Source: Candidatus Beckwithbacteria bacterium GW2011_GWC1_49_16 (lineage in GTDB: Bacteria; Patescibacteriota; Microgenomatia; UBA1400; CG1-02-47-37). From it: a stretch of DNA of 64,000 nucleotides. The notes below the pieces were generated by a model. The model ran no database searches, was not told where the DNA came from, and saw only the letters and a list, made by a program, of their open reading frames with translations. The stretch is taken from assembly GCA_001029675.1 (NCBI GenBank), contig CP011210.1:711528-775527 (forward strand). The letters run 5' to 3'. Positions 8,810-51,923 of this stretch are shown here, piece after piece; the first letter of the stretch is position 1, and each line of letters begins with the position of its first letter. The translations under genes and the position numbers were made by a program.

Positions 8810-8812
8810 AAA

Positions 8813-35718: not shown

Positions 35719-36745
35719 ATAAAGGCACTTCGGTAAACCACTTGTGCTTCCAGCCGTAGTCGATTTCCAGGAAGTCCATCTTTTTCATGCCCAAGTTAAG
35801 CGCGTCTTCGATTTCGAGTAAATTAAAATAGTTGCCGATGCCGGGGAAACGGGCGACGTCGTAACCGCATTTGACCGGGAAGTAGCAGTTTTGGTAAAGG
35901 GCGATTAAATCGACGCCGGCAATTCTGCCGCCGATTTTGACGCTGACCATCCTGACTTGGTAGCTAACCGACTTTTTGCCCAAGGCGATGACGTGGCGAA
36001 AGGCGGCCACTCGGCGGGGGTCTTCCCAGTCGGTGTCCTCGCCTTTTTGGCGGAAACGCTCTTGGCTTAAAGCCACCAGGTGCTTAAAGTCGCCAAAGCG
36101 GTCAAAAATGATTTGGGGGTTTTGGGCTTCGATAATCCGTTTGTCGCGGCGCAAATTATAGCGGCGTTTCTTTTTTAACCGGGCCAAAAAGTCGTCGAGG
36201 CTGGTAATATCGGTTAAGTCGAGAACGTACTTGGGGTCGTCGGAGGCGAGCTCAAATAGTTGCCCCGGGGCGTTTAAAGCATCGGCGGCGATGGCATTTA
36301 AGTGAAGCGGGCTGGGAGCGGCAGCAAGAAGCAAAGGAATAAAAATGGGGTCTTTGACTAAAAGCTTGCTTTCCTCCTGCCACCAGCTGCCAAACCAAAA
36401 ATATTTTTTCTTTTCTGCCTCGTACCATAAAGGCAAAACCGCCACCGTTTGCTCGTTTGATTTGAGGGTAAGAAAATAAGGCTGGTGGTGGTAACCGCGG
36501 TAAAAAGCCAAACGAAACTCCCAGGTGTCAAATAGGGTTTTTTGAGGCGAAAATTCTTGCCATAAAGCCTGGCAAGTACCAAGGTCGGAGACGACTTCAA
36601 CGGTGAGGTTTTTAAGCGCCCGGGCGTTGCCGTTGGTGCGATAGAAGCGGCTAAACTGGGGAGAAAGTTTCAGTTGATCCAGTAAAAAAGCCCCCGATTG
36701 AGGGCGTATACCCGGAGGTTCAAGATTAGACTTAGCAGGCTCCAT
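35702..36745 (-). CDS. GNAT-fold acyltransferase of FemAB/BioF2/CelD-like family
   Basis: 347 aa; C-terminal half resembles Acetyltransf_6-type fold; assignment approximate. Confidence 0.45.
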   Translation of the reverse strand: MEPAKSNLEPPGIRPQSGAFLLDQLKLSPQFSRFYRTNGNARALKNLTVEVVSDLGTCQALWQEFSPQKTLFDTWEFRLAFYRGYHHQPYFLTLKSNEQTVAVLPLWYEAEKKKYFWFGSWWQEESKLLVKDPIFIPLLLAAAPSPLHLNAIAADALNAPGQLFELASDDPKYVLDLTDITSLDDFLARLKKKRRYNLRRDKRIIEAQNPQIIFDRFGDFKHLVALSQERFRQKGEDTDWEDPRRVAAFRHVIALGKKSVSYQVRMVSVKIGGRIAGVDLIALYQNCYFPVKCGYDVARFPGIGNYFNLLEIEDALNLGMKKMDFLEIDYGWKHKWFTEVPLYVYEK

Positions 36746-36830
36746 TTATTTTAAACGTACTCAAATAATAAATTGTTTTGAACGATTGTCAATGATTAAT
36801 TTTGATCGTGGTAAACTATAATCCTAGCAT

Positions 36831-37631
36831 ATGTTTAAAGGCAAAAAAGTGTCGGCGGTGGTGCCGGTATACAACGAGCAAAAAACGGTAGCCAGCGTCG
36901 TCTGGGCGCTGATACTCACCCGGGCTGTCGACGAAGTGGTGGTGGTCAACGACGGCTCGACTGATAAAAGTTTGACTATCCTGGATGGCTTTGGGGAGAA
37001 AATTAAGCTAATTAACCTCAAAAAAAACCGGGGGAAAGGCGGGGCGGTGGCCGAAGGGATAAAGGCTTCAACCGGGGAAATAATCGTCATGGCAGACGCG
37101 GACCTGGTGACCATGGAAGAAAAACAGATTAAAAAGCTGTTGGCGCCCTTGAGCAACCCTCAAGTCGACGGGGTGATCGGCCAGCGGTTTAAAGGCTTGT
37201 TGCCGATGACCATGGTGGCGATTGCCGGAGAAAGAGCCTATTACAAAAATGACCTTATCCTCCATCTTGAGCCAATGAAAAAAACCCGCTTTGGGCTGGA
37301 GATGTATTTAAACCAAGTTTACAAAAATAAACGCGTCGAGGTGGTGGCTTTGAAAGGACTGTGGGGCTTGTTTAAGTACCAAAAACGGGGCCAAAAGGGG
37401 TTTAAGGAGATGTGGGAAGAGTTTAAAGAGGTGGCGGCGGAACTTAAACGGCAAGGCAAGCTACCGTCGACGGATATCAAGCTGATTAAAAAAATCCGCC
37501 AAACTACCAGTTGGGAAGAAATAGAAGACAAGGTGGCAGAAATTGACAACCGCGATTTGAGAGAATTTTTGCAAAAGTATGTTTTGACCTACCTGAAAAG
37601 GGCAAGAAGGTGGCTAAATGAAGTGGTTTAA
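36831..37631 (+). CDS. family 2 glycosyltransferase
   Basis: VSAVVPVYNEQ...VVVVNDGSTDKS...DAD GT-A motifs. Confidence 0.75.
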   Translation: MFKGKKVSAVVPVYNEQKTVASVVWALILTRAVDEVVVVNDGSTDKSLTILDGFGEKIKLINLKKNRGKGGAVAEGIKASTGEIIVMADADLVTMEEKQIKKLLAPLSNPQVDGVIGQRFKGLLPMTMVAIAGERAYYKNDLILHLEPMKKTRFGLEMYLNQVYKNKRVEVVALKGLWGLFKYQKRGQKGFKEMWEEFKEVAAELKRQGKLPSTDIKLIKKIRQTTSWEEIEDKVAEIDNRDLREFLQKYVLTYLKRARRWLNEVV

Positions 37632-38280
37632 AGCCGAGGTGGCAGTTTTTTTGGCGTTGCTGTTGGCGACGGTAGGCTGGTTGTGGTACAGATTAAACTT
37701 GACCCAGGAGGAGTTGACGGCTTTAAAAAATCAAGAGCAGACGGCTGAAACGATCCAAGCGGCAGCGGCGGATATTTTTCCCGACGGCCAGATAGAGTCC
37801 TTAAACATCGAGGTGCTTGAAGTAATGCTGGCGAGCCTGTCGGCCAGACTTGAAGTTTTAGAAGCCGGCGGCGGTCAAAGCGGTCAAGGCGGTCCGGCCC
37901 CGGCCCCGGCAACCACGACCACGGTTTCATTTCAACCCCAAGTGATTTATCTGGGTGCGGCCAGCACCCAAAACCGCGACTGGACCGAAACGGGGCAGGC
38001 AGTGACCATCAACTCCGGCGACTACCCTGCTGACGTTTCGGCTACTTTTGAGGCCGGGTTGTCGATTGTCGGCGGCGAAGCCTGGGCAAGGCTTAAGAAC
38101 AAAACCACCGGAGCGGTGTTGTCGGTCACCGAAGTGATGCATAATAATAGTAGTACCACCTGGAAAACTTCCCCTGCCTTTAAACTTCATTCCGGCTACA
38201 ACAATTACGTGGTGGAATTAAAATCGTCAAGCGGCGAGACCGTCAATCTTGCCGGAGCCAGAATCAGGATTAGTCGATGA
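37618..38280 (+). CDS. membrane-anchored hypothetical protein
   Basis: 220 aa; TM + coiled region + beta-rich C-term. Confidence 0.4.
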   Translation: MKWFKAEVAVFLALLLATVGWLWYRLNLTQEELTALKNQEQTAETIQAAAADIFPDGQIESLNIEVLEVMLASLSARLEVLEAGGGQSGQGGPAPAPATTTTVSFQPQVIYLGAASTQNRDWTETGQAVTINSGDYPADVSATFEAGLSIVGGEAWARLKNKTTGAVLSVTEVMHNNSSTTWKTSPAFKLHSGYNNYVVELKSSSGETVNLAGARIRISR

Positions 38281-38630
38281 AAAACAAGTTCGGCTTAACC
38301 AAAGTCTGGAAGAAGTGGCTGACGGTAGTTTTTGTAGTGGCGGTTTATCACCTGCTGCGTGACATCTTCCAGGAGTTTTTTAAGCTAAGCTTCTGGTTTA
38401 CCGATTTTTTACACTTTGTGCCGGACAAAAACGCGCTCCCCCGGAAACTCCAGTGGCTGCTACTTGACGGCTACAGCCAGTGGTTGACCTTTCCGGTGGA
38501 GATCTTTTTAATCTGGGCCGTTCCCAAGGCGTGGAAAAAGGAATACTTCGCTACTATTGACGCGCTGGTGTTGACGACGGTAATGGTAACCGAAACCTGG
38601 TGGCTGTTGACGGTGATAAACTACAGCTAG
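38277..38630 (+). CDS. membrane hypothetical protein
   Basis: 117 aa, 3 TM, Trp-rich. Confidence 0.35.
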   Translation: MKNKFGLTKVWKKWLTVVFVVAVYHLLRDIFQEFFKLSFWFTDFLHFVPDKNALPRKLQWLLLDGYSQWLTFPVEIFLIWAVPKAWKKEYFATIDALVLTTVMVTETWWLLTVINYS

Positions 38631-38818
38631 CCCTTCGACAGACTCAGGGTTATAACCCCCTCTCGTGGTAAAATACACATGCCTTGCCGCGTGCGAGCGG
38701 AGCGAGCTTTACGCGGCCCCATCGTTCCCGGTCCGATCGCGACATTAGTGGGATCGTGACCGAGGATCCTCGACCTCGATTTCATCGAGTCGGGACTAAC
38801 GATTAAGATAATTAATTA

Positions 38819-39073
38819 ATGAATAATGTTTATATCTTACAGTCTTTAAAAAATGGTAGATATTACATTGGTTGCACAAGTGACTTAAAGTCTCGGCTGG
38901 TTAAACACAACAAAGGGCATGTTCTATCAACTAGGCCTTACAGGCCGTGGCGTCTGGTCTATCAAGAAAGGTATAATACATTATCAGCCGCAAGGAAAAG
39001 AGAGAATCAAATAAAGTCTTGGCACAAACGAGCGGCTATTGAAAAGTTAATACGCGGTCCCGATCACGGCTAA
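38819..39073 (+). CDS. GIY-YIG nuclease-domain protein
   Basis: 84 aa; VYILQS..GRYYIGCTSDLKSRLVKHN...RPWRLVY GIY-YIG signature. Confidence 0.7.
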   Translation: MNNVYILQSLKNGRYYIGCTSDLKSRLVKHNKGHVLSTRPYRPWRLVYQERYNTLSAARKRENQIKSWHKRAAIEKLIRGPDHG

Positions 39074-39091
39074 TAGCCTGATCGAAATCGG

Positions 39092-39166
39092 GGCCCCATC
39101 GTCTAACGGTTAGGACGCAAGGTTCTCAACCTTGTAATCCGGGTTCGATTCCCGGTGGGGTCACCA
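39092..39166 (+). tRNA. tRNA-Glu (anticodon CTC)
   Basis: cloverleaf folded by hand: acceptor GGCCCCA/TGGGGTC, D-stem GTCT/GGAC, anticodon stem CAAGG/CCTTG, loop TTCTCAA, T-stem CCGGG/CCCGG with TTCGATT loop, encoded CCA. Confidence 0.85.
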
Positions 39167-40661
39167 TTTTGGAAATGGCAGCAGAATTGGGGGCAGCGCT
39201 GGCTGCGCCCCCCTCCGCAGACAGCGCTGCAAAGGGATATTTTAAGTCCGGCCGGAGGTGCCGATTAAATAAAGAATAGTTCGAGCCGACAGTTTTTGCC
39301 ATGATTGCCAAATCATGGCACTCATTTTTTGCGCGCGCGATTTTTTGCGCCTGCAAGGCGCTAATTACGAATTCCCTCATAAGTTCGAGCCAAGAAGAAC
39401 CACTTTTTGAAACTCTGGCAATTTGCTCCGCAATTTTTAACTTCTCGTCAAATAGTTCGTTTTTCTTTTGTTTATAAACTTCCGGTTCCACTACTTGATC
39501 TAAATAGCCATCCAATAAACGGTTTAATTTTGTTTCAATTTCTTTTTGGTTCTCGCCAAGCCTTTGTAATTCCGTTTCAGAATTTGCCTGATCTTTTAAT
39601 TCGTCTGCCGCCATCCACTTTTCAAAATATGGCTCCCAATCTTGGTGCAAGCCGCAATCACCCACAACTTTTTTTAGTTGTTGCTCAATTTCATCTTCGG
39701 GAGCATATTTTTGCAAACAAGGTTTCAGCTTTTTAGTACAGCGATAATAGATAAAAGTTTGCGAAGTTCCATTTTTATACTTTTTAATATGTTGTTCGGC
39801 GGTGATTGCGGCGCCGCACTCGCCACAAGTGGCTAAACCGGAAAAAGCAAAATCATGGCCATGTTGTCGTGGACGTAAGATTTTTTCCACTTGCTTTTGT
39901 ACTTCCTTAAATAGTTGTTTGGAGATGAAGCATTTGTGGGAACCCTCGTAATATTCGTTAGCATATTTTAAAATCCCCACATAAAACTTGTTTGATAACA
40001 TTCGCTTTATTTGGTCAACTTTAATAGGTTTCCCACAACTTTCCCGATTCATCCCAAACCTAAAACAAAAGTTTGAAATTTCCGTAAAAGATTTATTGCC
40101 TTCGGCAAAAAGTTGAAAAGCTTTTTTAACAACTTTAGAAAGTTCGGGGTCAACATCAACGGCTCTGGTTTTAGGATTATTAATGTAACCATAAGGCGCT
40201 TTACTCGGCCACTCACCACGCCGAAGTTTTTGCCGATTGCCCCGTTTTACATTTTCCGATAAATTATCCACATAATATTTTGACTGGCCGAAGGCAATTG
40301 ATAACATAAATTTTCCTTGGGGAGTATTTTCAAACCAAAAAGACGGAAATTTCAAATCCAAAAGTTTTCCGGTATCCAGTAAATAGATTACTTTCCCGCC
40401 ATCAACTGAATTTCTAGCCAATCTGTCTGGATGCCAGGAAATTATGCCCTGCGCTTCGCCTTTCTCAATTTTCTTCAACACTAGCGCAAATTGCTCACGA
40501 CCTGGCATTTTGGCGGTTTTGGCTTCGGTAATAAATTCAGTTATTTCTAAATGGTCACGTTTGGCAAATTCTTTTAATTCTGCAATTTGCGCTTCAATAG
40601 ATAAAACTTGTTTATCTTTTTCATCAGTTGATTTTCGGCAATATGCTATGTATTTATTCAT
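39126..40661 (-). CDS. large serine recombinase (resolvase N-domain + recombinase domain + Zn ribbon)
   Basis: 511 aa; catalytic N-domain YCRKSTDEKDKQVLSIEAQ..., long C-terminal recombinase/coiled-coil region with Cys cluster (CGECGAA...C); 3' end overlaps tRNA-Glu antisense. Confidence 0.9.
   Translation of the reverse strand: MNKYIAYCRKSTDEKDKQVLSIEAQIAELKEFAKRDHLEITEFITEAKTAKMPGREQFALVLKKIEKGEAQGIISWHPDRLARNSVDGGKVIYLLDTGKLLDLKFPSFWFENTPQGKFMLSIAFGQSKYYVDNLSENVKRGNRQKLRRGEWPSKAPYGYINNPKTRAVDVDPELSKVVKKAFQLFAEGNKSFTEISNFCFRFGMNRESCGKPIKVDQIKRMLSNKFYVGILKYANEYYEGSHKCFISKQLFKEVQKQVEKILRPRQHGHDFAFSGLATCGECGAAITAEQHIKKYKNGTSQTFIYYRCTKKLKPCLQKYAPEDEIEQQLKKVVGDCGLHQDWEPYFEKWMAADELKDQANSETELQRLGENQKEIETKLNRLLDGYLDQVVEPEVYKQKKNELFDEKLKIAEQIARVSKSGSSWLELMREFVISALQAQKIARAKNECHDLAIMAKTVGSNYSLFNRHLRPDLKYPFAALSAEGGAASAAPNSAAISKMVTPPGIEPGLQG
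39161..39262. repeat. inverted repeat IR-A (~95-100 bp), left boundary of recombinase segment; begins in tRNA 3' end TCACCA
   Basis: reverse complement of 40767..40870 with 1-2 mismatches, compared by hand. Confidence 0.85.
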
Positions 40662-40766
40662 ACTTTGCTTTTGTACTCTTGTAACATATTGTAACTTGTT
40701 CTTTTAAAAAGTTCTTTAAATATCTACCTTATTAATTTTTGCGTTTTTTCTTCTGTTCTTTTTTTA

Positions 40767-40870
40767 CGGCAACTCCGACCGGACTTAAAATATCCCTTTG
40801 CAGCGCTGTCTGCGGAGGGGGGCGCAGCCAGCGCTGCCCCCAATTCTGCTGCCATTTCCAAAATGGTGAG
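40767..40870. repeat. inverted repeat IR-B, partner of IR-A
   Basis: ...ggcagcgctggctgcgcccccctccgcagacagcgctgcaaagggatattttaagtccgg... in opposite orientation. Confidence 0.85.
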
Positions 40871-40996
40871 CGTTTACGAAAAAATTCGAACCTTTTTTAA
40901 AAATTGTTAACGCATTGCGTCAGCTCCTCGCTCGCCTTCGGCTCGCTTCGTCGCTATTCGCGTTCTGCGCGGCGCCCCCACCCGCCGCGCCTCCGA
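40865..40996. repeat. inverted repeat IR-C (~131 bp), left boundary of cargo segment
   Basis: reverse complement of 48364..48495 essentially identical. Confidence 0.85.
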
Positions 40997-41316
40997 AAAC
41001 TGTCGGCTCGAATCCTAAAGAAAAAACGCAAAAATTTTAAAGAACTTTTTCAATGTCCTATAACTTAAATGGCCGTTCTGGTTGTACTCAACTCGGATTG
41101 CTCCAAATTGTCCAAAACGGCCATTAAAAAAAGCAATCCGAAAAAAGTTGAGTACAATTAAAATATACAAAGTTTCAACATCAAAAACAAGAGTCTCTTG
41201 CATTTGTTTTTTAGCGTGGTATTTGATATAAATATCATAGTACAATAAATCTAGATTTTCGATGATTAAAGTATGATATGCTTAAAGAAAATGCTGTCAA
41301 AATTGGGAGCGCCAAC

Positions 41317-41335
41317 GAGAGAGAGAGAGAGAGAG
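41317..41335 (+). repeat. (GA)9G dinucleotide tract
   Basis: gagagagagagagagagag between an upstream ATG (41273/41291, frame 2) and the in-frame signal peptide of the giant ORF (frame 0). Confidence 0.9.
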
Positions 41336-41636
41336 TAAACGGCTTCGCCGTTTTGTAACAACTTTCCTTCTAATTTTATCTTTACTTCTTCAAAATTTTT
41401 TATTCCTTATTAATCCTGTCTACGCCGCAACTAATTCTTGGGATTTTTCAACTTCGTCTAATTACACTTATGATGATACAAAAATTGAATTTTCTTCGGG
41501 TCAAGCGCAACTAAAAGCAACTTCAAATTGGTACAACACTTCATGGTCAAGGCGTAAAGCAATTACAGTTACAGGTTCTACGGCGGGTGCACAAACAAAT
41601 TATCAACTTAAACTTACAGTACCTTATGATTCGGAC

Positions 41637-44600
41637 ATGCAAGCAGATTTTGATGATATAAGGTTTACATCTTCTGATGGGACTACTTTAATTGATCACT
41701 GGCTAGAGTCGAAAACGGATTCAACTACTGCTGACTTTTGGGTAGAGATTCCATCAATTCCAGCCTCTCCAAATACCACAATGATATACATATATTACGG
41801 AAATTCCAGTGCGAGCAGTGCTTCAAATGGAGACAACACATTTCTTCTTTTTGATAATTTTGATGGGGTATCTATGGATGGCTTTTCTCGGGTAAGCCAA
41901 CAAACACTTTTTTCTGGAAGTGGAAGTGAAGATTGGTTAGGGAGAACTGTTTTTGTTGATGATGGATCGAAGTGGGTATTGGTTTATAGACAAGCTGCTA
42001 ATCATTGCTGTGATACTGCAGCAGTCATGCATATTCGGTTTTCGACAAATGAAGGTGCTTCATGGACAAATGCTGATACATTTACGAATGGCTCGGCTGT
42101 TACTGGAGCACCCTTCAGTCGACACTCAACAAATGCCGTTGCTGATCCTGTCCTTATGAAAGCACCAAACGGCGACTTGCTACTTCATGTAGGAGAGGTG
42201 AACAGCGGAGGAAATCCTATGGGTGCATACCAATATCGTAGCACTGATGGTGGCGCAACATGGACTGACGAAGGTTTAATAAACAATGACACTGAGATAT
42301 ATAGCGGCCAGGATTATACAACTGTAGATAATGATCTCTATGCTATCTTTTGGAAAGATGCAGGATCGGATGGTGCTCCTTACCAAACCTTACTTTATAA
42401 ATCAACTGACAACGGAATAACATGGGCACTAGTGAGCCCGATAACAACAAGCGGTACTGATGAAGGGGGGATTGAATACGTTGGAAGTAATACATTGCTG
42501 GTTGTTCTTAGGGACACGCCAGCAAGCAAAACTTATCAGAGAATTTCAACAGACTTAGGACAAACATGGGGTACACAAACAGATATTTCATCTTCGGTTG
42601 GAGTATTGCAGCGACCAAGAATGAGAATATTTTCTGATGAGCCTAACAGAGTGTATCTATATGGACGTGATCAATTGGCTGGAAATGACTATACGGTTCT
42701 TTACTACACTGATAATAATGGTTCAACATGGAGTTTAAAATTTTATCCAGATACAACATCATATGCGGATACCGGCTATTCAGATGTTTTAAAACAGACA
42801 GACGGTGATTTTTATATGCTTTCTTATGGAGGAACTAGTGGTACATCAAGTATTAAAGAATACATTTTCAATAAGAGCGCGACATTACAAATAGATACAA
42901 CAAAGTGGACAACTGATAATGCTACTACGTCAATTTCTAACTCCCAGTTAACATATCAAGAAACAGATACAAATATTACGTGGGGCGTCGTTAAATCAGT
43001 AAATTCAGTTTCTCGCCCATTTATTGCTGAAATTGACTATACGTTAACAAGCGGTGAATATGCACATTTTATGTACGGACCTAATCCTGATTCTGCTCAA
43101 TCTACTGCGAATGGTTATGTTTGGTGGATCGACATTAATGACCCAACAAACCCAATGCAGGACTTGACCAGAGTTGAAGACGGCACTTTTAATGACATTC
43201 AACGCAATGTTCAAGTTTCCCCGGATATTGCCAATAACGAAACTTTTAATCAAAAATTTATATTTCATAGCACTGGAGAAACGGCTTTAACAAACGGGAC
43301 ACAATATATTTCGGGAAGCGATACAACCTATTCGTCGGGAAAAATAGCATTAGGAACTGATAGTGGATCAGTTGTAAAAGTAAATACAATTAAAGTCCGC
43401 GTGTATGCAAATCCCGAACCCACAAGCTCAATAGGCTCAGAAGCTACTTTGTATGATACTTCTAACCCTACAGTACAACCAACTTCTGCAAACTCACTGA
43501 CTTTTGTATCATTATCTGCGTTTTCAGAAACAGCGACAAAAAATGGAGGACAAATTAAGTACCAGGTTTCTAATGATAGTGGCACCACTTGGTGCTGGTA
43601 CAGCTCTGGATGGACAACAACGAGTTCCGGTTATTCAGAATCCAACACTGCGAGTGATGTTAATACAAATATTTCTACGTTTCCCGTCGGAAGCGGATCG
43701 TTTTTATTCAAAGCTTATCTGAATTCTGATGGTTCTCAACTTGTTCAACTTGATGCCATAGGGGTAACTTATGTAGCCGACAATACGCCGCCATCTATTT
43801 CTTTAACGGCACTGAGTCCTGATCCAAATACTGACACCACACCTACTCTTTCCGGGACAGCCACAGACACTCAAGGGACAGTGTCTAATGTCCAGTTTCA
43901 AATGGACTCAACTTCCGGTTCGTGGACTGCTTGTACTGCAGGTGATGGAAGTTTTGATGAGACAACGGAAACTTTTACCTGTACTCCTTCGGCATTATCT
44001 GACGGAAGTCATACTATGTATGTCCGTGCAACAGATAGTAACAGCAACACGACTTCTAATGCCAATGCGTCCACCGATAGTTTTACGATTGATATTACTA
44101 CTCCCGCCTCTTTTGATTTAGATTCGCCCGGAGATAATTCGTATACTAATTCCGAAAGACCAACTTTTAAGTGGAAAGCGACAACAGATGCAACCGCCGG
44201 ACTTTCTAAATATGTTTTGGAAATAGACAATCCTTCGATCGGCTCTGGCCAACCTTCTGGTGACTTCACTATTGATAGTATTCCCACCAGTAGAACAACT
44301 GATTACGAAACAAATAAATATACCATCCATTACGAAAACTTCTCGGATTCTGATTCCACAAATAATTATATTTCTGTCTATACCAAATCACACAATGATT
44401 GGGGTTCATCTGAAAATGACGGAAAACTTAGAGAAGGAAAAGTAAGTTGGAAAGTAAAAGCAGTTGATAATGCCGGTAATGAAAGATCTTCTTCTCGAAC
44501 TATGTTTATGGACAAGACTTCCCCATCTGTAGTATTCACTCAAATAAACAGTACGCCTTACACAACTAATAATTTCTTGACCACAGATAAAACACCAACT

Positions 44601-45725
44601 ATCTTTGGAAAAATAACTGATTCATTATCCGGTGGCGATTCGTCACAAACTCAAGATGAAAACGGGCCAAAAGTTGCCAGTGCTCCTAAAGAAGTAAATA
44701 TTAAGGTGGAGAAAAAAGAAGGATTAACTTACAAGCTTGTAACATTGTACAAGATCAATATGGATAATCCATACTATACTTGCGACCTAAACAAAACTAT
44801 AGATAACTCAAAACAAAAATGCGATAAATATTTGCCTTTTGAATACACACCAAAAGAGATCTTAAATTTAGGGACTTATAAAATAACTCTTTCTGGAAAA
44901 GATAAGGCAGATAACACGTCGTCAGAAACAAGCTTTACTTTAAATATCACCACCCTAGCTCAAATCACTACACCTGAAGAAAAAGAAATTATTGAGGAAG
45001 GAATAAAAGAGTTACCCAAGGAAGAACAGGAAAAAGTAAAAGAAGAACTAGAAATCACTAAACCATCTGAAACACCACAACCAAATATTTTAGAAAAGGC
45101 TAGTCAGGGAGTTGTTAACATAAGCAAAAACATTATTCATGGAGCTGGTAACTTAATTACTACAATATTTACTGGAATTGGTAACGGAATAAGCTTTGTA
45201 TTTAATGGTGTTGGTTCAGGCCTAGCGTTTATGGGTAATACTATTGGGAACAGCTATAGTACTCTTGTTGATCATGCGCCTGGTGTTACCAAAAATATTT
45301 TGTTAGCGGTAGGAACTAATGTTAATAATGCAATCAATGAAGCAAGAAATGGAATCGCAAACCTCGCCTTTAGTATTGGCGAAAAAACAGATGATGTTTC
45401 TCATGGTGTAGGAACCGCGATTATTAAGATCGGTTATCTGTTCGTACCGGAAGCCACCAAAATATCTAACGTTACAGCAGTTGCGCTATCTCCCATGTCA
45501 GTCAGGATAACATGGGAAACAAATCATCCAGCAAACGGCAAAGTAAACTGGGGGTTTGAAGATGGAATATATGAATTTGAGGATCAAACACACAAAAGAA
45601 CCAGTAAGCATGAATTTGTTCTTGAAAATCTCAAACCCGATACTGAATATCATTATGAAGTCATGAGCCAAAACAGAAATTATGTATATGACGCTAACCG
45701 GAAATTTAAAACTCCGGCAAAATAA
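41637..45725 (+). CDS. giant secreted surface protein: DUF2341-like N-region, 5x Asp-box (BNR) sialidase-like propeller, Ig/FN3-like C-terminal domains
   Basis: 1362 aa from first in-frame ATG; open frame extends upstream to 41286 and encodes a signal peptide (FLLILSLLLQNFLFLINPVYA/AT) with no in-frame start: see (GA)n finding; Asp-boxes STNEGASW, STDGGATW, STDNGITW, STDLGQTW, TDNNGSTW. Confidence 0.8.
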   Translation: MQADFDDIRFTSSDGTTLIDHWLESKTDSTTADFWVEIPSIPASPNTTMIYIYYGNSSASSASNGDNTFLLFDNFDGVSMDGFSRVSQQTLFSGSGSEDWLGRTVFVDDGSKWVLVYRQAANHCCDTAAVMHIRFSTNEGASWTNADTFTNGSAVTGAPFSRHSTNAVADPVLMKAPNGDLLLHVGEVNSGGNPMGAYQYRSTDGGATWTDEGLINNDTEIYSGQDYTTVDNDLYAIFWKDAGSDGAPYQTLLYKSTDNGITWALVSPITTSGTDEGGIEYVGSNTLLVVLRDTPASKTYQRISTDLGQTWGTQTDISSSVGVLQRPRMRIFSDEPNRVYLYGRDQLAGNDYTVLYYTDNNGSTWSLKFYPDTTSYADTGYSDVLKQTDGDFYMLSYGGTSGTSSIKEYIFNKSATLQIDTTKWTTDNATTSISNSQLTYQETDTNITWGVVKSVNSVSRPFIAEIDYTLTSGEYAHFMYGPNPDSAQSTANGYVWWIDINDPTNPMQDLTRVEDGTFNDIQRNVQVSPDIANNETFNQKFIFHSTGETALTNGTQYISGSDTTYSSGKIALGTDSGSVVKVNTIKVRVYANPEPTSSIGSEATLYDTSNPTVQPTSANSLTFVSLSAFSETATKNGGQIKYQVSNDSGTTWCWYSSGWTTTSSGYSESNTASDVNTNISTFPVGSGSFLFKAYLNSDGSQLVQLDAIGVTYVADNTPPSISLTALSPDPNTDTTPTLSGTATDTQGTVSNVQFQMDSTSGSWTACTAGDGSFDETTETFTCTPSALSDGSHTMYVRATDSNSNTTSNANASTDSFTIDITTPASFDLDSPGDNSYTNSERPTFKWKATTDATAGLSKYVLEIDNPSIGSGQPSGDFTIDSIPTSRTTDYETNKYTIHYENFSDSDSTNNYISVYTKSHNDWGSSENDGKLREGKVSWKVKAVDNAGNERSSSRTMFMDKTSPSVVFTQINSTPYTTNNFLTTDKTPTIFGKITDSLSGGDSSQTQDENGPKVASAPKEVNIKVEKKEGLTYKLVTLYKINMDNPYYTCDLNKTIDNSKQKCDKYLPFEYTPKEILNLGTYKITLSGKDKADNTSSETSFTLNITTLAQITTPEEKEIIEEGIKELPKEEQEKVKEELEITKPSETPQPNILEKASQGVVNISKNIIHGAGNLITTIFTGIGNGISFVFNGVGSGLAFMGNTIGNSYSTLVDHAPGVTKNILLAVGTNVNNAINEARNGIANLAFSIGEKTDDVSHGVGTAIIKIGYLFVPEATKISNVTAVALSPMSVRITWETNHPANGKVNWGFEDGIYEFEDQTHKRTSKHEFVLENLKPDTEYHYEVMSQNRNYVYDANRKFKTPAK

Positions 45726-45727
45726 AT

Positions 45728-46057
45728 ATGGATAAAATTAATTTAAACAAAGATCAAAAGTTAGTTGTGGACTCTTTCTATAAAGTTAGGACCAAGAAAG
45801 GTTTAAACAGTTTTATTGAGGATTTATTTTCACCGGAAGAAACATTAGATTTAGCCCAACGACTAAAAATCGCTAAGTTAATTCTTGACGGAAAAACTTA
45901 CGAAGAAATTGCGGCAGAAATTCCTGTCAGTACCTCAACCATTTCAAAAATAGGCCAAGTAATTAAATTCGGAAAAGGTGGTTTTATTCTCTTGCAGAAT
46001 AATACAAAAGCACAAAAAGCTAAAAAGCAAAACGGAAAGGAGGTATCAAAAATATGA
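45728..46057 (+). CDS. TrpR/YerC-like HTH protein
   Basis: 109 aa; ...SPEETLDLAQRLKIAKLILDGKTYEEIAAEIPVSTSTISK... Confidence 0.5.
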   Translation: MDKINLNKDQKLVVDSFYKVRTKKGLNSFIEDLFSPEETLDLAQRLKIAKLILDGKTYEEIAAEIPVSTSTISKIGQVIKFGKGGFILLQNNTKAQKAKKQNGKEVSKI

Positions 46058-46428
46058 TTAACTTAGAATTTCAAATTTATCATTTACTAACAGGGCTTGC
46101 CGGAGGATTAGTTCGTGGATTAGTTGGAATAATGAAACAAACCCAGAAACCGGACGAGTTTAAAATTCATTGGAAATATTTTGGTTTAACCATGTTAGTT
46201 TCAGGAGTTGTTGGGGTAGTGTCAGGAATTATTGCTGATGGCGATTGGAGAATATCGTTACTTGCCGGATACGCTGGCACTGATTTTCTGGAAAGTCTTT
46301 ACAGATTAAGATTCCCTCAAATGTTCAGTATTGCTCAAACCGTTAAAACGGTAACAGAAGAAAGTAACACCGGAAAAGTAACAACACAAACAACTACGCC
46401 AGTAACAGCACCAGTAGTGACAAAATAA
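46054..46428 (+). CDS. small 2-TM membrane protein (holin-like topology)
   Basis: 124 aa; two TM helices, Thr/Val-rich tail. Confidence 0.35.
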   Translation: MINLEFQIYHLLTGLAGGLVRGLVGIMKQTQKPDEFKIHWKYFGLTMLVSGVVGVVSGIIADGDWRISLLAGYAGTDFLESLYRLRFPQMFSIAQTVKTVTEESNTGKVTTQTTTPVTAPVVTK

Positions 46429-46433
46429 AAAAA

Positions 46434-47585
46434 CTAGAAGTGGTAGATAGTGGCTTTGCCTTTTCCTTCAGTTTTGATTGTTCCTCGTTCTACTAAATCT
46501 TCTAGGTAATTAGTCGCGGTGCTTTGGGAAACATGAAGTAATTCTCTTACATCATCATTGTTGATTTGTTTTTTCACTTCAATTAGTTTTTCGATCTTCA
46601 TTAAATTTTCTTCCCGCTTTGTTTGTCTGGCGTGATTAGCTTTTAATCTTCTAGCTTCCAACTCTGTATTTAATTTGTCATCAACCCGTTGTTGAATTTC
46701 CTCATCACTGACCTGTGGAGCTTGAGGAACTTGGGGTTTTTCTGCTGGTTTTTCCGGCTCAATGTTGATTGTTGGTTCTGGTTGCGGAATAACTGGTTCC
46801 GGTTTTGTTTCTTCTGGCAGTTTTTGTTCTTCAATTGGCGGAGTTTGAACAGGTGGTGTCTCTGTCGTTTCTTGTTTTGGTTCCTCTTTTTGAGATGGTA
46901 AAGAAAGATAAGGAGAAGGATCAATAAAACCAAGGTAACCATTTGCTAAATCGGGATTGTTTGGTTTGATTGCAAAATGTAAATGTTCGCCAAAAGCGGC
47001 ACCCGATGAACCGGATAAACCAATAACTTTGTTAATTCCAATCTCATCGCCTTCTTTGACTTTTGTTTCTTGAAGATGTCCATAAATTGATTGTCCCCAG
47101 GAATGTTGAATTGTGATTGATGTTCCAAAATCGCCATTATCTCCAGACTGAATAACTTTTCCAGAATCACAAGGAAAAACTTCATTTCCGGCAGATAAAC
47201 CAAAATCTAAACCGTTATGTCCAACAATTCCCCACTCCTGAAGTTTCTTTTTAATTTTTTCGTTGGCTGATTGCTGGCCAAAAGAAAAAGTAACCGGAAA
47301 ATTACCGGAGAACGGATAATGTAAAGCGGGAATGTTAATAATCGGCGGAGAAACAGGAGGTACGCTTTCTGTCGGTGGTGTTTCTGTTATTGTTTCGGCG
47401 GGTTGTGGCATTTCTGCTGTTGGTGTTACAGTCGGGGGTGTTTGTGTTTGCTCTGGTGTTGCTTGTACCGGTGGAGTTTTCATCGGCGGATGGTCAGTCG
47501 AAGGAATCACTGGATTTGTTGTTTCCGTTGTTGTTTGGTTTTGGTCTTGGGGAATATCATCAGCCATATATAAACAGTGTATCAA
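46434..47585 (-). CDS. M23 (LytM-type) metallopeptidase with Pro/Thr/Glu linkers and C-terminal winged-HTH
   Basis: HNGLDFG...HLHF M23 His motifs; C-terminal ...DVRELLHVSQSTATNYLEDLVERGTI... wHTH; no obvious signal peptide. Confidence 0.75.
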   Translation of the reverse strand: MIHCLYMADDIPQDQNQTTTETTNPVIPSTDHPPMKTPPVQATPEQTQTPPTVTPTAEMPQPAETITETPPTESVPPVSPPIINIPALHYPFSGNFPVTFSFGQQSANEKIKKKLQEWGIVGHNGLDFGLSAGNEVFPCDSGKVIQSGDNGDFGTSITIQHSWGQSIYGHLQETKVKEGDEIGINKVIGLSGSSGAAFGEHLHFAIKPNNPDLANGYLGFIDPSPYLSLPSQKEEPKQETTETPPVQTPPIEEQKLPEETKPEPVIPQPEPTINIEPEKPAEKPQVPQAPQVSDEEIQQRVDDKLNTELEARRLKANHARQTKREENLMKIEKLIEVKKQINNDDVRELLHVSQSTATNYLEDLVERGTIKTEGKGKATIYHF

Positions 47586-48363
47586 AATGGGACAAGGAAA
47601 TCTTTTGTCTTCTTCTCTTGTTTTTCTTTTTGTTGTTGGCGGCTCCCCCGCCCCCGCCCCGTTGAGAACACAAAGCTAAAAAGGAGGGAACGCGACAGAA
47701 AACCATCGAAGGAGTACAGCCTTTCAAAGAGCGTTCCCGACTAACGCGAGCCCGCAAAGATTTACTTTGTTTTAAAAGAAACCAGCGGGCGAGCCCATCG
47801 AGAGTCATCGCGCAGGGCGCTAAAATAAAAAAGCGCGAAGCGCTTAACCTTAAGCGGGCGCGCAAGCCCTGATAAAACAGGAAGGGGTACAAATAAAGAA
47901 GGCGGGGGCGAAAAAGCGGATACCCCAGAACGCGCGAGCCTTAAAAGTCAAAACAAAAGATGAGCCCCGCTCGCAAGCGGGGCGAGGGACGCGCAGTAGG
48001 AACTCTTAGAAAAGTAAAGCCGTTGTCGCAACCCGCCCCTAGGCGGGTCAGCGCGCGATGAATGGGGTCGCCGCCAACAATTAATCGGGAGGGTGGGTTG
48101 ATACGGAATACAGAATAACCATTTAAACTTTAGTCATGTAGTCTTGTACACTTCTACAAAAGCAAAGTATCTACAGAGGGGCGGGAAACCGCCGGAAGGA
48201 ATTTTGATCTTGTTCTTCCGTTTGGCTTGGCGAGAACCAAAAAAGTGGTGGAACCGGAAGTTTTGTGCTTGGAATCGGCCAATTTCCACCATTTTGGCCG
48301 ATTCATTTGTGGTATTATAGGGAAAGCGGAAGCTTTCCAAAAATCGCGCGCGCAAAAAATGAG

Positions 48364-48495
48364 CGGAGGCGCGGCGGGTGGGGGCGCCGCGCAGAACGCG
48401 AATAGCGACGAAGCGAGCCGAAGGCGAGCGAGGAGCTGACGCAATGCGTTAACAATTTTTAAAAAAGGTTCGAATTTTTTCGTAAACGCTCACCA
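48364..48495. repeat. inverted repeat IR-C', partner of IR-C; ends in TCACCA core (attR-like)
   Basis: as above; followed by aattttgcc resembling sequence after tRNA. Confidence 0.85.
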
Positions 48496-48562: not shown

Positions 48563-48847
48563 TTATTGCTGTTGACCGAAGCCTCCGCCGTCTTGTCTGG
48601 GAGGCCGGGCGACGTCGACCCTTAAGGGCCGGCCGTCGAGATCCTGGCCGTCAAACATTTCTTTAGCTTTTTGCATTTCCTCGGGGGTTGACATGGTTAC
48701 GAAACCAAAACCCTTGGAACGCCCGGAGGCTTTGTCGGTGATGACGATAGCATCAGTGACAGTACCGGCCTGGGAAAAATGCTGCTTTAATTGATCGGTG
48801 GTAACTGTGTAGGATAAGTTGCCTACGTAAAGTTTGTTGTTGTCCAT
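48563..48847 (-). CDS. RRM-type RNA-binding protein (glycine-rich tail)
   Basis: 94 aa; RNP2 LYVGNL, RNP1 KGFGFVTM. Confidence 0.8.
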   Translation of the reverse strand: MDNNKLYVGNLSYTVTTDQLKQHFSQAGTVTDAIVITDKASGRSKGFGFVTMSTPEEMQKAKEMFDGQDLDGRPLRVDVARPPRQDGGGFGQQQ

Positions 48848-51919: not shown

Positions 51920-51923
51920 CGTT

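What the first reader, a model, noticed from the sequence alone, without database searches (positions are those of the whole stretch)
41637..45725. Element-borne giant secreted protein combining DUF2341-like, sialidase-type Asp-box propeller and FN3/Ig-like modules
Seen directly:
- Five Asp-box (S/T-x-D-x-G-x-T-W) repeats between ~aa 140 and 420 indicate a BNR/sialidase-like beta-propeller.
- The N-terminal NYQLKLTV...DFDDIRFTS...DFWVEIPSIP block resembles DUF2341-type surface-protein heads.
- The C-terminal end (...VTAVALSPMSVRITWETNHPANGKVNW...DTEYHYEV) is FN3-like.
- The gene is markedly AT-richer than its flanks.

A horizontally acquired, switchable lectin/glycosidase-like adhesin is a plausible host-interaction or epibiont-attachment factor.
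Basis: partly seen in the sequence, partly recalled or inferred. Interest (0 to 1): 0.5.

Follow-up and report, generated by a model that had tools for sequence, protein, structure and literature searches.

The report
Phase-variable surface protein on CPR element
The flagged gene is a real secreted multi-domain protein with a sialidase-type propeller, carried on a small mobile element in a Candidatus Beckwithbacteria genome; its translation depends on the length of an (AG)n repeat, and in this sequence the repeat leaves the gene switched off.

Summary
The ORF carries DUF2341, a six-bladed Asp-box propeller with a sialidase-type fold (AF2 pLDDT 92.7), Big_13 Ig-like and FN3-like modules. Its GC is 0.385 against about 0.50 for the host.

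The given start (41637) is an internal Met. The frame is open from 41286 and encodes a Sec signal peptide, but it has no start codon. The ATGs at 41273, 41278 and 41291 lie in the other two frames, upstream of an (AG)9 tract (41318-41335). (AG)8 or (AG)10 would restore translation.

Thirty-two related loci carry tracts of 4-18 units; 19 are in frame and 11 are out of frame. Two loci identical over 3.4 kb differ only by (AG)17 versus (AG)18. This is the same logic as the H. influenzae licA switch.

The gene is the swappable cargo of a 9.3-kb element integrated at tRNA-Glu. The element has a large serine recombinase, an internal inverted attP-like site, perfect 132-nt inverted repeats around the cargo, TrpR-like, holin-like and M23 genes, and a conserved structured non-coding block.

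All 14 sequences of this strain's locus (this window and 13 retrieved loci) read (AG)9, so fast switching at this particular locus is inferred, not shown. The adhesin/glycosidase function is also inferred.

The parts
39092..39166 (+). tRNA-Glu(CTC), the integration target. Its 3' end ...GGGGTCACCA is the left junction (attL-like site 1).
   Evidence: ARAGORN; Rfam tRNA 64 bits; junction alignment.
39126..40661 (-). Large serine recombinase, 511 aa. Its last 13 codons (41 nt) overlap tRNA-Glu antisense, and the residues after ...SKMV (TPPGIEPGLQG) would differ in an excised form.
   Evidence: Pfam Resolvase 4e-20, Recombinase 2.4e-10, Zn_ribbon_recom 1.2e-9; PHROG integrase 1.9e-71; weak CcrB/XisF matches, all below their cut-offs.
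39161..39263 (.). Inverted repeat arm A. Its partner A' is at 40767-40869 (103 nt, 98% complementary). The pair brackets the recombinase gene.
   Evidence: the repeat finder I2. The same arrangement is seen in L002, L010, L027, L008 and L024.
40767..40869 (.). Inverted repeat arm A'. Together with B it forms an internal, inverted, attP-like site (site 2).
40864..40995 (.). Inverted repeat arm B (132 nt, 100% complementary to 48364-48495). It overlaps A' by the 6-nt core TGGTGA and contains a degenerate tRNA T-arm/acceptor mimic.
   Evidence: the repeat finder I1; alignment A1.
48364..48495 (.). Inverted repeat arm B', ending in the core TCACCA at the right junction with the chromosome (attR-like site 3).
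41273..41293 (+). Three start codons: ATG 41273 and ATG 41291 share one frame, and ATG 41278 is in a second frame. The third frame (the ORF frame) is closed by TAA at 41283.
   Evidence: Sequence; frame analysis.
41318..41335 (+). (AG)9 tract, the proposed slipped-strand switch. (AG)10 puts ATG 41291/41273 in frame, (AG)8 puts ATG 41278 in frame, and (AG)9 is OFF.
   Evidence: It is the only (AG)>=6 tract in 64 kb, against 0.01 expected by chance. Related loci carry tracts of 4-18 units. L008 and L028 are identical apart from the tract.
41334..41426 (+). Signal peptide coding region: SKRLRRF VTTFLLILSLLLQNFLFLI NPVYA|A.
   Evidence: Translation; the only hydrophobic segment, KD 2.25; the same leader is seen in ON homologues P0002-P0005, P0009 and P0152.
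41334..45725 (+). Main open reading frame of the secreted protein (1463 codons from AGT 41334 to stop 45723-45725). It is annotated in GenBank only from the internal ATG 41637 (AKM79550.1, 1362 aa).
41646..41879 (+). DUF2341 domain.
   Evidence: Pfam PF10102 E=5e-22.
41889..42896 (+). Six-bladed Asp-box beta-propeller with a sialidase (GH33)-type fold.
   Evidence: Pfam BNR_2; AF2 pLDDT 92.7; Foldseek; PDB profile search 4e-19 to 7lbu.
43833..44093 (+). Big_13 bacterial Ig-like domain (best of two stretches).
   Evidence: Pfam PF19077 E=1.2e-6.
45462..45713 (+). C-terminal FN3-like domain.
   Evidence: Pur_ac_phosph_N E=7.8e-8; fn3 E=1.1e-4.
45728..46057 (+). TrpR-like HTH protein, 109 aa. It is a conserved backbone gene of the element; a role as regulator or recombination directionality factor is a guess.
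   Evidence: Pfam Trp_repressor 4.4e-14; 76-93% identical in 15 other loci.
46054..46428 (+). 124-aa membrane protein, a backbone gene, possibly holin-like.
   Evidence: No Pfam hit. It has 175 cluster-level relatives, and the named ones are all Patescibacteria. One relative carries Phage_holin_3_3.
46434..47567 (-). M23 peptidoglycan peptidase with a C-terminal wHTH-like tail and no signal peptide. It is a backbone gene.
   Evidence: Pfam Peptidase_M23 1.9e-19; PHROG endolysin/metallo-endopeptidase matches.
47640..48110 (-). Conserved GC-rich non-coding block of the backbone. It is a candidate ~450-nt structured RNA (or an origin of replication).
   Evidence: 85-88% nucleotide identity over ~570 nt in other elements; compensatory pairs in three helices and many conserved G-U pairs on this strand; folding z-score -4.4; no Rfam match.
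48339..48363 (.). 25-nt subterminal repeat, a perfect inverted copy of 39321-39345 inside the recombinase 3' region. Fragments of a decayed second recombinase copy lie at 48155-48263.
   Evidence: the repeat finder I4, I8, I9; blastn; also present in L002 and L010.

Best explanation
The region is the cargo gene of a 9.3-kb integrative element (39167-48495) in Candidatus Beckwithbacteria bacterium GW2011_GWC1_49_16, a member of the CPR/Patescibacteria.

What the gene encodes: a protein of about 1,480 aa exported through a Sec signal peptide. Its modules are DUF2341, a sialidase-fold six-bladed propeller, an unassigned beta-rich region, Big_13 Ig-like domains and a C-terminal FN3-like domain.

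How it is switched: three ATGs sit upstream of the tract in two of the three reading frames. The third frame, which is the ORF frame, is closed by a conserved stop. An (AG)n tract lies between these ATGs and the signal peptide. Slipped-strand gain or loss of AG units therefore cycles the gene through ON (ATG 41278), OFF, and ON (ATG 41273/41291). This window carries (AG)9, so it is OFF. One unit more or one unit fewer would restore a full secreted product.

What is shown: the domain content and fold; the missing in-frame start; tract-length polymorphism and the ON/OFF distribution across the family; integration at the tRNA; the conserved backbone; and cargo replacement between elements.

What is inferred: that the tract mutates quickly within populations; that the protein binds or cleaves nonulosonic-acid-type glycans on a host cell surface; and that switching serves host-range or immune/phage evasion.
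For: Frame and tract in this window:
- The frame is open from 41286 with a signal peptide but no ATG/GTG/TTG. The ATGs at 41273/41291 and 41278 are in the other two frames.
- The (AG)9 tract is unique in 64 kb, with 0.01 expected by chance.

Family-level evidence for a switch:
- A pattern search found 4 genome loci and 27 metagenome loci; one more came from a contig look-up (L043). All have the tract at the 5' end of long signal-peptide ORFs, with tract lengths of 4-18 units. The tally is 19 ON by ATG, 11 OFF, 2 with only GTG/TTG and 1 at a contig edge. OFF is therefore about one third, the value expected if phase is unconstrained.
- Most OFF alleles with a complete ORF keep it open for 895-1605 codons; L005 has only 490.
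- L008 (AG)17 OFF and L028 (AG)18 ON are 100% identical over 437 nt upstream and 3000 nt downstream.
- ON homologues begin M...RERERESKRLRRF.
- P0152 is an ON allele of this very protein, with 1456/1462 identities from KRLRRF onward.
- The two-of-three-frames ATG layout matches the licA switch (PMC2212159). H. pylori oipA uses CT dinucleotide repeats in its 5' region in the same way (PMC10564699).

Element:
- tRNA-Glu, the recombinase and the three junctions sharing TCACCA.
- The same backbone in more than 15 loci.
- The same double inverted-repeat layout in L024, whose recombinase is only 46% identical and which targets tRNA-Gly.
- The composition shift relative to the host.

Protein:
- Domain, fold and residue evidence.
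- Other cargos are also glycan or cell-wall directed: SASA esterase plus LysM, LamG plus phosphatase plus LysM, FG-GAP, BNR.
Against: - All 14 sequences of this strain's locus (this window, L001, L035, L039, L049-L054, L056-L058, L062; some are re-assemblies of the same samples) read (AG)9. Only the OFF consensus is seen here, and no within-population heterogeneity could be examined because there is no access to reads.
- The recombinase is truncated or split in some strains (L049, L052, L055). This fits a decaying, domesticated element.
- The 20 nt after the tract are conserved by construction of my search pattern, so the set is ascertained.
- No sigma-70-like promoter or Shine-Dalgarno sequence was recognised upstream of the ATGs.
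- The acid/base Asp (D42) is conserved in only about half of the propeller family. The catalytic geometry could not be inspected.
- No expression or binding data exist.
Confidence: 0.7

Rival explanations
1. Silenced cargo in a decaying element. The (AG)9 frameshift is a fixed inactivating mutation in this lineage. Tract-length differences between elements are ordinary slow indels, not a rapid reversible switch.
For: All 14 sequences of this strain's locus are (AG)9/OFF. The recombinase is truncated in some strains. No empty site and no excised circle were found.
Against: The 1463-codon frame is intact at 38% GC, and most other OFF alleles keep 895-1605 codons open. L008 and L028 differ only in the tract. 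The OFF fraction of about one third equals the unconstrained expectation, rather than being near 0 (selection on a stable gene) or accompanied by other lesions. The conserved dual-frame ATG design is hard to explain without switching.
Confidence: 0.2
2. The operative switch is DNA inversion. The recombinase (or RecA) flips the 7.4-kb cargo between the perfect 132-nt repeats B/B'. This changes which cargo genes receive read-through transcription, for example from the RRM gene at 48563-48847.
For: The repeats are perfect here and in L024 (260 nt), and the double-repeat layout is conserved. Contig Ga0103680_10000002 (L035/L063) carries an exact flip of 40996-48363. The k141 contig L047 has 4 nt of the flipped junction on the recombinase side. 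Many assemblies break exactly at B.
Against: About 24 other contigs have the window orientation. A 132-nt inverted repeat is an assembly ambiguity for k<132, so the single flipped contig may be an artefact. The gene's own conserved upstream block (41195-41290) moves with it, so inversion does not separate gene from promoter. Large serine recombinases normally pair attP only with attB (established knowledge).
Confidence: 0.15
3. The GenBank model is right. Translation starts at ATG 41637 and gives a 1362-aa protein without a signal peptide.
For: It is the first canonical start in the frame, and it is what gene callers and NCBI annotate. The Pfam DUF2341 match starts just after it.
Against: One hundred upstream in-frame codons encode a textbook signal peptide and conserved N-terminal sequence, shared with homologues that have in-frame starts. 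BNR, Big_13 and FN3 modules are extracytoplasmic-type domains.
Confidence: 0.05
4. The protein is mainly a secreted exo-sialidase-type hydrolase used for nutrient scavenging or host-surface remodelling, rather than an adhesin.
For: R19, D42, E192, R208, R260 and Y297 are present. HMMER aligns the E-x15-RD motif (E192...R208-D209, 16 positions apart) to the same motif of solved sialidases. Stand-alone ~340-370-aa homologues are annotated exo-alpha-sialidase. A sister element carries a SASA sialate-esterase-type cargo.
Against: The canonical RIP motif reads GRT here. D42 is variable across the family. The long Ig/FN3 stalk architecture is typical of adhesins. No activity data exist.
Confidence: 0.3
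5. The out-of-frame tract is a sequencing or assembly error.
For: Dinucleotide repeats can stutter in library PCR.
Against: The identical (AG)9 appears in all 14 sequences of this locus, produced by different assemblers and pipelines (JGI, MEGAHIT contigs, ANAN16 scaffolds and NCBI MAGs).
Confidence: 0.02

Closest known systems
Haemophilus influenzae licA (lic1) CAAT-repeat translational switch
   Same: The repeat tract lies just downstream of three initiation codons that occupy only two of the three frames. Changes in repeat number therefore give ON / ON / OFF states (PMC2212159). The layout here is identical: ATG 41273 and 41291 share one frame, 41278 is in another, and the third frame is closed.
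   Different: The repeat is a dinucleotide rather than a tetranucleotide. The product is a secreted multi-domain protein, not a cytoplasmic kinase. The organism is a CPR bacterium. The gene is cargo of a mobile element. The switching rate has not been measured.
Helicobacter pylori oipA (and other outer-membrane-protein genes) CT-dinucleotide phase variation
   Same: A CT/AG dinucleotide tract in the 5' part of a surface adhesin gene, with frame-dependent on/off status that differs between strains (PMC10564699).
   Different: Here two frames are productive. The tract precedes the positively charged n-region of the signal peptide and encodes (Arg-Glu)n. The same leader is attached to many unrelated cargo proteins.
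GH33 exo-alpha-sialidases (e.g. Micromonospora viridifaciens 1eur/1eus, P. acnes 7lbu, T. forsythia NanH 7qy9)
   Same: Six-bladed propeller, TM-score 0.73-0.77. Asp-boxes. The E-x15-RD motif (Glu and Arg 16 positions apart), a first-blade Arg, a GYSD Tyr and an Arg in the next blade.
   Different: Only about 16% identity. There is no RIP motif (GRT here, GRP in the family). The acid/base Asp is not family-wide. The substrate is unknown. The top structural hit is a protein of unknown function (5hx0).
tRNA-targeting integrative elements with large serine recombinases (phage-type integrases, SCC Ccr, XisF/SpoIVCA-type)
   Same: A recombinase with Resolvase, Recombinase and Zn-ribbon domains next to the junction; a short shared core; the tRNA 3' end regenerated on insertion.
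   Different: The integrated element keeps a complete attP-like site in inverted orientation between the recombinase and the cargo. Both arcs are therefore bracketed by long (87-260 nt) near-perfect inverted repeats. This layout is conserved in relatives with only 46% identical recombinases. I know of no described counterpart. There are no capsid or conjugation genes, and the element is absent from IMG/VR.
Giant DUF2341/FhaB-type exoproteins of Patescibacteria
   Same: Large secreted DUF2341-containing proteins proposed to mediate adhesion or host interaction in ultrasmall episymbionts (PMC11809585).
   Different: This protein is mid-sized (~1.5 kaa). It sits on a mobile element and has a repeat-based translational switch. 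Neither feature is mentioned in that work.
Mycoplasma variable surface protein systems (Vlp, Vsa, Vsp; recalled knowledge)
   Same: Reduced-genome, host-dependent bacteria that vary large surface proteins through repeat slippage and/or site-specific inversion, with conserved 5' leader and signal-peptide regions joined to variable bodies.
   Different: There is no array of silent copies here. Diversity comes from exchange of cargo between mobile elements (L043 versus the window).

Membership tests
DUF2341 (PF10102) domain proteins | Match to the Pfam model above its gathering score. | tested here: met
   78.6 bits against a cut-off of 23.4, E=5e-22.
BNR/Asp-box six-bladed propeller (Pfam BNR_2; sialidase fold) | Repeated S-x-D-x-G-x-T-W boxes and a six-bladed propeller fold. 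| tested here: met
   Five boxes; BNR_2 47.8 bits against 31.4; AF2 pLDDT 92.7; Foldseek probability 1.00 and TM-score up to 0.77.
GH33 exo-alpha-sialidase (enzyme) | Arginine triad that binds the sialate carboxylate. | tested here: inconclusive
   R19 (23/25), R208 (22/25) and R260 (20/25) or R242 (22/25) are conserved at positions consistent with the triad. Their spatial arrangement was not inspected.
GH33 exo-alpha-sialidase (enzyme) | Tyr nucleophile with its partner Glu. | tested here: inconclusive
   E192 is invariant and HMMER aligns it to the Glu of the E...RD motif in 7qy9 and 7lbu. Y297 in the GYSD motif is conserved in 24/25 sequences. The assignment rests on motif similarity only.
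GH33 exo-alpha-sialidase (enzyme) | (F/Y)RIP motif and the acid/base Asp about 24 residues after it. | tested here: inconclusive
   The motif reads GRT here and GRP in the family. D42 is present here and in the closest relatives, but in only about half of the family.
GH33 exo-alpha-sialidase (enzyme) | Sialidase activity. | not testable with these tools
   Requires an enzyme assay.
Simple-sequence-repeat contingency locus (slipped-strand phase variation) | Repeat tract positioned so that unit changes shift the ORF relative to its start codon. | tested here: met
   The (AG)9 tract lies between the ATGs and the signal peptide. Adding or removing one unit restores the frame.
Simple-sequence-repeat contingency locus (slipped-strand phase variation) | Tract-length polymorphism between otherwise identical alleles. 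| tested here: met
   L008 (AG)17 and L028 (AG)18 have 100% identical flanks over 3.4 kb. For this specific locus only (AG)9 was seen, in all 14 sequences. The ON allele P0152 has a diverged leader.
Simple-sequence-repeat contingency locus (slipped-strand phase variation) | High, reversible mutation rate within a clonal population. | not testable with these tools
   Needs raw reads or cultures. Only consensus assemblies are available.
Simple-sequence-repeat contingency locus (slipped-strand phase variation) | Expression follows the repeat phase. | not testable with these tools
   There is no transcriptome or proteome access.
Large-serine-recombinase integrative element | Recombinase with Resolvase catalytic domain, Recombinase domain and Zn ribbon. 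| tested here: met
   All three Pfam domains score above their cut-offs.
Large-serine-recombinase integrative element | attL and attR junctions that can be resolved into attB (tRNA|flank) and attP. | tested here: met
   Site 1 is tRNA|A, site 3 is B'|flank, and an intact B'|A (attP-like) copy is present. All share the core TCACCA. The same logic holds with the core GCTCCA in L024.
Large-serine-recombinase integrative element | Unoccupied attB in related genomes, or an excised circular form. | tested here: not met
   All contigs carrying the flanking GIY-YIG or RRM genes also carry the element. No circle junction was seen. The search was limited to exact-protein look-ups.
Invertible DNA switch (inverton) | Inverted repeats flanking a segment found in both orientations. 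| tested here: inconclusive
   The repeats are perfect. One contig is flipped and a 4-nt tip supports the other junction, against about 24 contigs in the window orientation. Assembly ambiguity cannot be excluded.
Invertible DNA switch (inverton) | Inversion uncouples a promoter from its gene. | tested here: not met
   The whole gene, together with its conserved upstream block, lies inside the segment.

The most novel reading that the evidence does not exclude
This is one member of an undescribed family of ~9-10-kb tRNA-integrating elements specific to Patescibacteria, and their purpose would be to deliver, exchange and stochastically gate surface exoproteins. The family combines four features:
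- a recombinase arc and a cargo arc separated by an internal inverted attP copy, which would allow flipping or cassette exchange;
- a licA-like (AG)n three-state translational switch placed in front of interchangeable glycan- or cell-wall-directed cargo proteins;
- a holin-like / M23 / TrpR-like backbone;
- a ~450-nt structured RNA.
If correct, this would be the first contingency-locus system reported in CPR episymbionts and possibly a new class of mobile element.
Probability: 0.35. Interest if true: 0.8.

Novelty: new variant of a known kind. Interest (0 to 1): 0.62.

Why it matters
CPR/Patescibacteria are thought to live attached to other microbes, yet how they choose hosts and change their surface is largely unknown, and they cannot be manipulated genetically. 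A mobile, swappable exoprotein slot with a built-in stochastic on/off switch would give these minimal genomes a cheap way to vary host attachment, glycan attack or phage exposure.

It also has a practical consequence. Standard gene callers and GenBank truncate such genes at an internal Met (AKM79550.1), which removes the signal peptide. Secretome and adhesin surveys of CPR genomes therefore miss or mis-classify them.

The hypothesis can be tested directly with existing metagenome reads. The recombinase and its att sites, and the conserved structured RNA, are additional concrete objects for experiments.

Tried and rejected
- Alternative starts: I looked for GTG, TTG or near-cognate starts in the ORF frame between the stop at 41283 and the signal peptide. 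There are none.
- Sequencing error: all 14 sequences of this locus agree on (AG)9.
- Known RNA families: an Rfam scan at E<=1 over 37-50 kb found only the tRNA.
- Viral origin: neither the leader pattern nor the conserved non-coding motif occurs in IMG/VR. PHROGs recognises only the integrase and the M23 peptidase.
- Empty attB: exact look-ups of both flanking genes returned only occupied sites.
- Contig for the ON allele P0152: it is not on record.
- Sigma-70 promoter upstream of the leader on the + strand: none passed the scan.
- C-terminal membrane anchor: there is no hydrophobic segment besides the signal peptide.
- Literature: searches for phase variation or slipped-strand repeats in CPR, Patescibacteria or Saccharibacteria, and for serine-recombinase elements in Patescibacteria, found nothing relevant.
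- Leader conservation: I considered the conserved 20 nt after the tract as evidence for a recombination cassette boundary. I rejected it as evidence because my search pattern imposes it.
- Assembly artefact: I considered the double inverted-repeat structure an artefact. I rejected that because it recurs in independent assemblies and in a distant relative with different sequences.

Full report
**1. The observation**

The ORF 41637-45725 (+) exists. Pfam finds the following on the extended translation 41337-45725:
- DUF2341: E=5e-22.
- BNR_2: E=1.6e-12.
- BNR: E=1e-6.
- Big_13: E=1.2e-6.
- Pur_ac_phosph_N, an FN3-like fold: E=7.8e-8.
- fn3: E=1.1e-4, below its cut-off.

Five Asp-boxes lie at aa 236-465 of that translation. 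The gene has GC 0.385 and GC3 0.28. Host genes in the window have GC 0.50-0.56 and GC3 about 0.6, and no 4.4-kb stretch outside the island falls below GC 0.447.

**2. The real 5' end and the switch**

The reading frame stays open upstream to 41286. It encodes a classical Sec signal peptide (KRLRR / FVTTFLLILSLLLQNFLFLI / NPVYA|A), but that stretch contains no ATG, GTG or TTG.
- ATG 41273 and ATG 41291 share one frame.
- ATG 41278 is in a second frame.
- The ORF frame is closed by TAA at 41283.
- An (AG)9 tract lies at 41318-41335, between the ATGs and the signal peptide. It is the only such tract in 64 kb (0.01 expected).
- (AG)10 would join ATG 41291/41273 to the ORF.
- (AG)8 would join ATG 41278 to the ORF.
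- (AG)9 joins none of them.

The gene as assembled is therefore OFF. The GenBank model (AKM79550.1, 'Serine-rich adhesin, platelet-type', 1362 aa) starts at an internal Met.

**3. Is this a switch or an accident?**

Homologues with in-frame starts begin M...(RE)n-SKRLRRF (P0002-P0005, P0009). A DNA pattern anchored on the tract and the signal-peptide n-region retrieved 4 genome loci and 27 metagenome loci, and L043 came from a contig look-up.
- In all of them the tract sits at the 5' end of a long ORF with a signal peptide.
- Tract length ranges from 4 to 18 units.
- Nineteen loci are in frame with an ATG, 11 are out of frame, 2 have only a GTG or TTG, and 1 is at a contig edge.
- The OFF fraction is about one third. 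That is what an unconstrained tract gives when one of three frames is closed. It is far from what selection on a stable gene would leave.
- Most OFF alleles with a complete ORF keep it open for 895-1605 codons; L005 has only 490.
- L008 (AG)17 OFF and L028 (AG)18 ON are 100% identical over 437 nt upstream and 3000 nt downstream.
- P0152 is an ON allele of this very protein, with 1456/1462 identities.

Three ATGs occupying two of three frames is exactly the licA CAAT switch of H. influenzae (PMC2212159). CT/AG dinucleotide tracts in the 5' region of adhesin genes are the H. pylori oipA mechanism (PMC10564699).

Two caveats apply.
- All 14 sequences of this strain's locus (this window plus 13 retrieved loci) show (AG)9, and I cannot see reads. 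Rapid switching at this locus is therefore inferred from the family.
- The 20 nt after the tract are conserved by construction of the search pattern.

**4. The element**

tRNA-Glu(CTC) lies at 39092-39166. It is followed by a 511-aa large serine recombinase on the minus strand (39126-40661). Three junctions share the core TCACCA:
- Site 1 is tRNA|A.
- Site 2, inverted, is B'|A, a complete attP-like site.
- Site 3 is B'|flank.

As a result, arms A/A' (103 nt, 98%) bracket the recombinase, and arms B/B' (132 nt, 100%) bracket the 7.4-kb cargo.

The backbone consists of the recombinase, the leader with its tract, a TrpR-like gene, a 124-aa membrane protein, an M23 peptidase and a ~570-nt GC-rich non-coding block. 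It recurs in more than 15 loci with 60-93% protein identity, while the large exoprotein differs between them.

The double inverted-repeat layout, including the 6-nt overlap at the tRNA CCA end, is also found in L024. That element's recombinase is only 46% identical and it targets tRNA-Gly(CCC). The layout is therefore a family feature, not an assembly artefact.

Other points about the element:
- Other targets include tRNA-Glu(TTC) and tRNA-Gly(GCC), and probably tRNA-Val.
- The organism is Candidatus Beckwithbacteria bacterium GW2011_GWC1_49_16.
- Named relatives of the backbone membrane protein are all Patescibacteria.
- The element is absent from IMG/VR.
- In L043 the same species, insertion site, recombinase arc and first ~240 nt of the cargo segment are joined to a different leader, an (AG)10 tract and an unrelated exoprotein. 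Cargo is therefore exchanged between elements.
- No empty site was found.
- In some strains the recombinase is truncated.

**5. Inversion**

One contig (Ga0103680_10000002; L035/L063) shows an exact flip of 40996-48363. A k141 contig (L047) carries 4 nt of the complementary junction. About 24 other contigs have the window orientation. Several assemblies break precisely at B, including the 7416-nt JGI contig L001, which equals 40996-48411.

Inversion is possible but weakly supported. Because the gene's own upstream block moves with it, inversion is not the obvious on/off mechanism. Why the element keeps an inverted attP copy remains unexplained. Ideas considered are flip-flop recombination, cassette exchange and 2-micron-like amplification. 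None was tested.

**6. The protein**

The propeller (aa 185-520) models at pLDDT 92.7. It matches GH33 sialidases and the uncharacterised protein 5hx0 with TM-scores of 0.73-0.77. A family profile hits PDB sialidases down to 4e-19.

Residue evidence:
- Conserved non-Asp-box residues are R19, Y33, H39, E192, R208, R242, R260, D294, Y297 and Y313.
- HMMER aligns E192-x15-R208-D209 with the Glu...Arg-Asp motif of T. forsythia NanH and of the P. acnes sialidase.
- 'TGYSDVL' resembles the nucleophile-Tyr motif; this comparison is from memory.
- D42 lies at the expected distance for the acid/base residue, but it is conserved only in the closest relatives.

A catalytically competent enzyme acting on nonulosonic acids is therefore plausible but not demonstrated. 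The only strongly hydrophobic segment is the signal peptide.

Sister elements carry these cargos:
- SASA esterase plus LysM.
- LamG plus metallophosphatase plus LysM.
- FG-GAP.
- BNR plus DUF2341.

All of these are directed at glycans or cell walls. DUF2341-containing giant proteins have been proposed as adhesion or host-interaction factors in Patescibacteria (PMC11809585).

**7. Comparison and novelty**

Each ingredient is a known kind: a repeat-based translational switch, a tRNA-targeting serine-recombinase element and a sialidase-fold surface protein. I found three things undescribed in the searchable literature:
- the use of such a switch in CPR bacteria;
- its placement as a conserved leader in front of interchangeable cargo on a dedicated mobile element;
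- the internal inverted attP architecture.

I rate this a new variant of a known kind with moderately high interest. The specific claims of fast switching, inversion and glycan targeting need reads or experiments.

**8. Verdict**

- The best explanation is an element-borne, (AG)n phase-variable secreted protein with a sialidase-fold propeller, currently in the OFF phase (confidence 0.7).

Noticed in passing
window 47640-48110 (minus strand); L004 7160-7680, L024 640-1170, L028 7090-7600, L010 8330-8830: A GC-rich (0.50) non-coding block upstream of the M23 gene is 85-88% identical over ~570 nt between elements. Its conservation is comparable to or higher than that of the flanking protein-coding genes. 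It folds with z=-4.4. It has a long-range closing helix (TTGTTGGCGGCGACCCC / GGGG.GGAGCCGCCAACAA), compensatory changes in three helices and many conserved G-U pairs on the minus strand. L025 lacks a central ~175-nt insert. There is no Rfam match. It is a candidate large structured RNA of the element, or its origin of replication.
   Followed up: partly
window 39161-39263 / 40767-40869 and 40864-40995 / 48364-48495; L024 122-381 / 8666-8925 and 8920-9006 / 10681-10767: The integrated element retains a complete attP-like site in inverted orientation between the recombinase and the cargo. This gives two abutting pairs of near-perfect inverted repeats with a 6-nt overlap at the tRNA CCA end. The layout is conserved between elements whose recombinases are only 46% identical. 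Its purpose is unexplained.
   Followed up: partly
window 39321-39345 and 48339-48363; also 48155-48170, 48224-48263: A perfect 25-nt inverted repeat (AAAAATCGCGCGCGCAAAAAATGAG) lies about 130-180 nt inside each element end. Short fragments matching the recombinase start and 3' region lie at the right end of the cargo. These could be the remains of a second, inverted recombinase copy, or accessory binding sites. The 25-mer is also conserved in L002 and L010.
   Followed up: no
L043 (ERZ27254847 k141_225015) and L045, compared with window 35280-41232: The same species, insertion site, recombinase arc, arm B and first ~240 nt of the cargo segment are joined to a different leader, an (AG)10 tract (ON) and an unrelated exoprotein. 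This indicates cargo replacement by recombination within the conserved backbone.
   Followed up: partly
L035/L063 (JGI 3300009285 Ga0103680_10000002) and L047 (ERZ27254750 k141_137811): The 7.4-kb cargo appears exactly inverted in one public contig. Four nucleotides of the complementary junction appear at the tip of a k141 contig. About 24 other contigs have the window orientation.
   Followed up: partly
window 39126-39166: The last 13 codons (41 nt) of the recombinase gene overlap tRNA-Glu antisense. The residues after ...SKMV read TPPGIEPGLQG when integrated. Reading through the inverted copy A'|B gives ...SVYEKIRTFFKNC, the tail expected for the excised form.
   Followed up: no
L049, L052, L055, L051/L057 (same species, other samples): In several assemblies the recombinase gene is truncated, split or not called, while the 1463-codon cargo ORF and the (AG)9 tract are unchanged. 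This may indicate domestication of the element.
   Followed up: no
window 51149-52961: A second low-GC patch (about 0.39) covers a NAS-like gene and the D-Ala-D-Ala ligase gene (51924-52961, GC 0.387, GC3 0.35). It is possibly another horizontally acquired segment.
   Followed up: no
L023 2445-6200; L010 2278-6228; L030 251-2935: Sister elements carry other cargos behind the same (AG)n leader: SASA (sialate O-acetylesterase-type) plus FN3 plus LysM; LamG plus metallophosphatase plus LysM; and FG-GAP repeats.
   Followed up: partly
window 46054-46428 and 46434-47567: The backbone pairs a small multi-pass membrane protein (one relative carries a phage holin domain) with an M23 peptidase that lacks a signal peptide but has a C-terminal winged-helix-like tail. 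This looks like a lysis-cassette arrangement in an element without structural phage genes.
   Followed up: no
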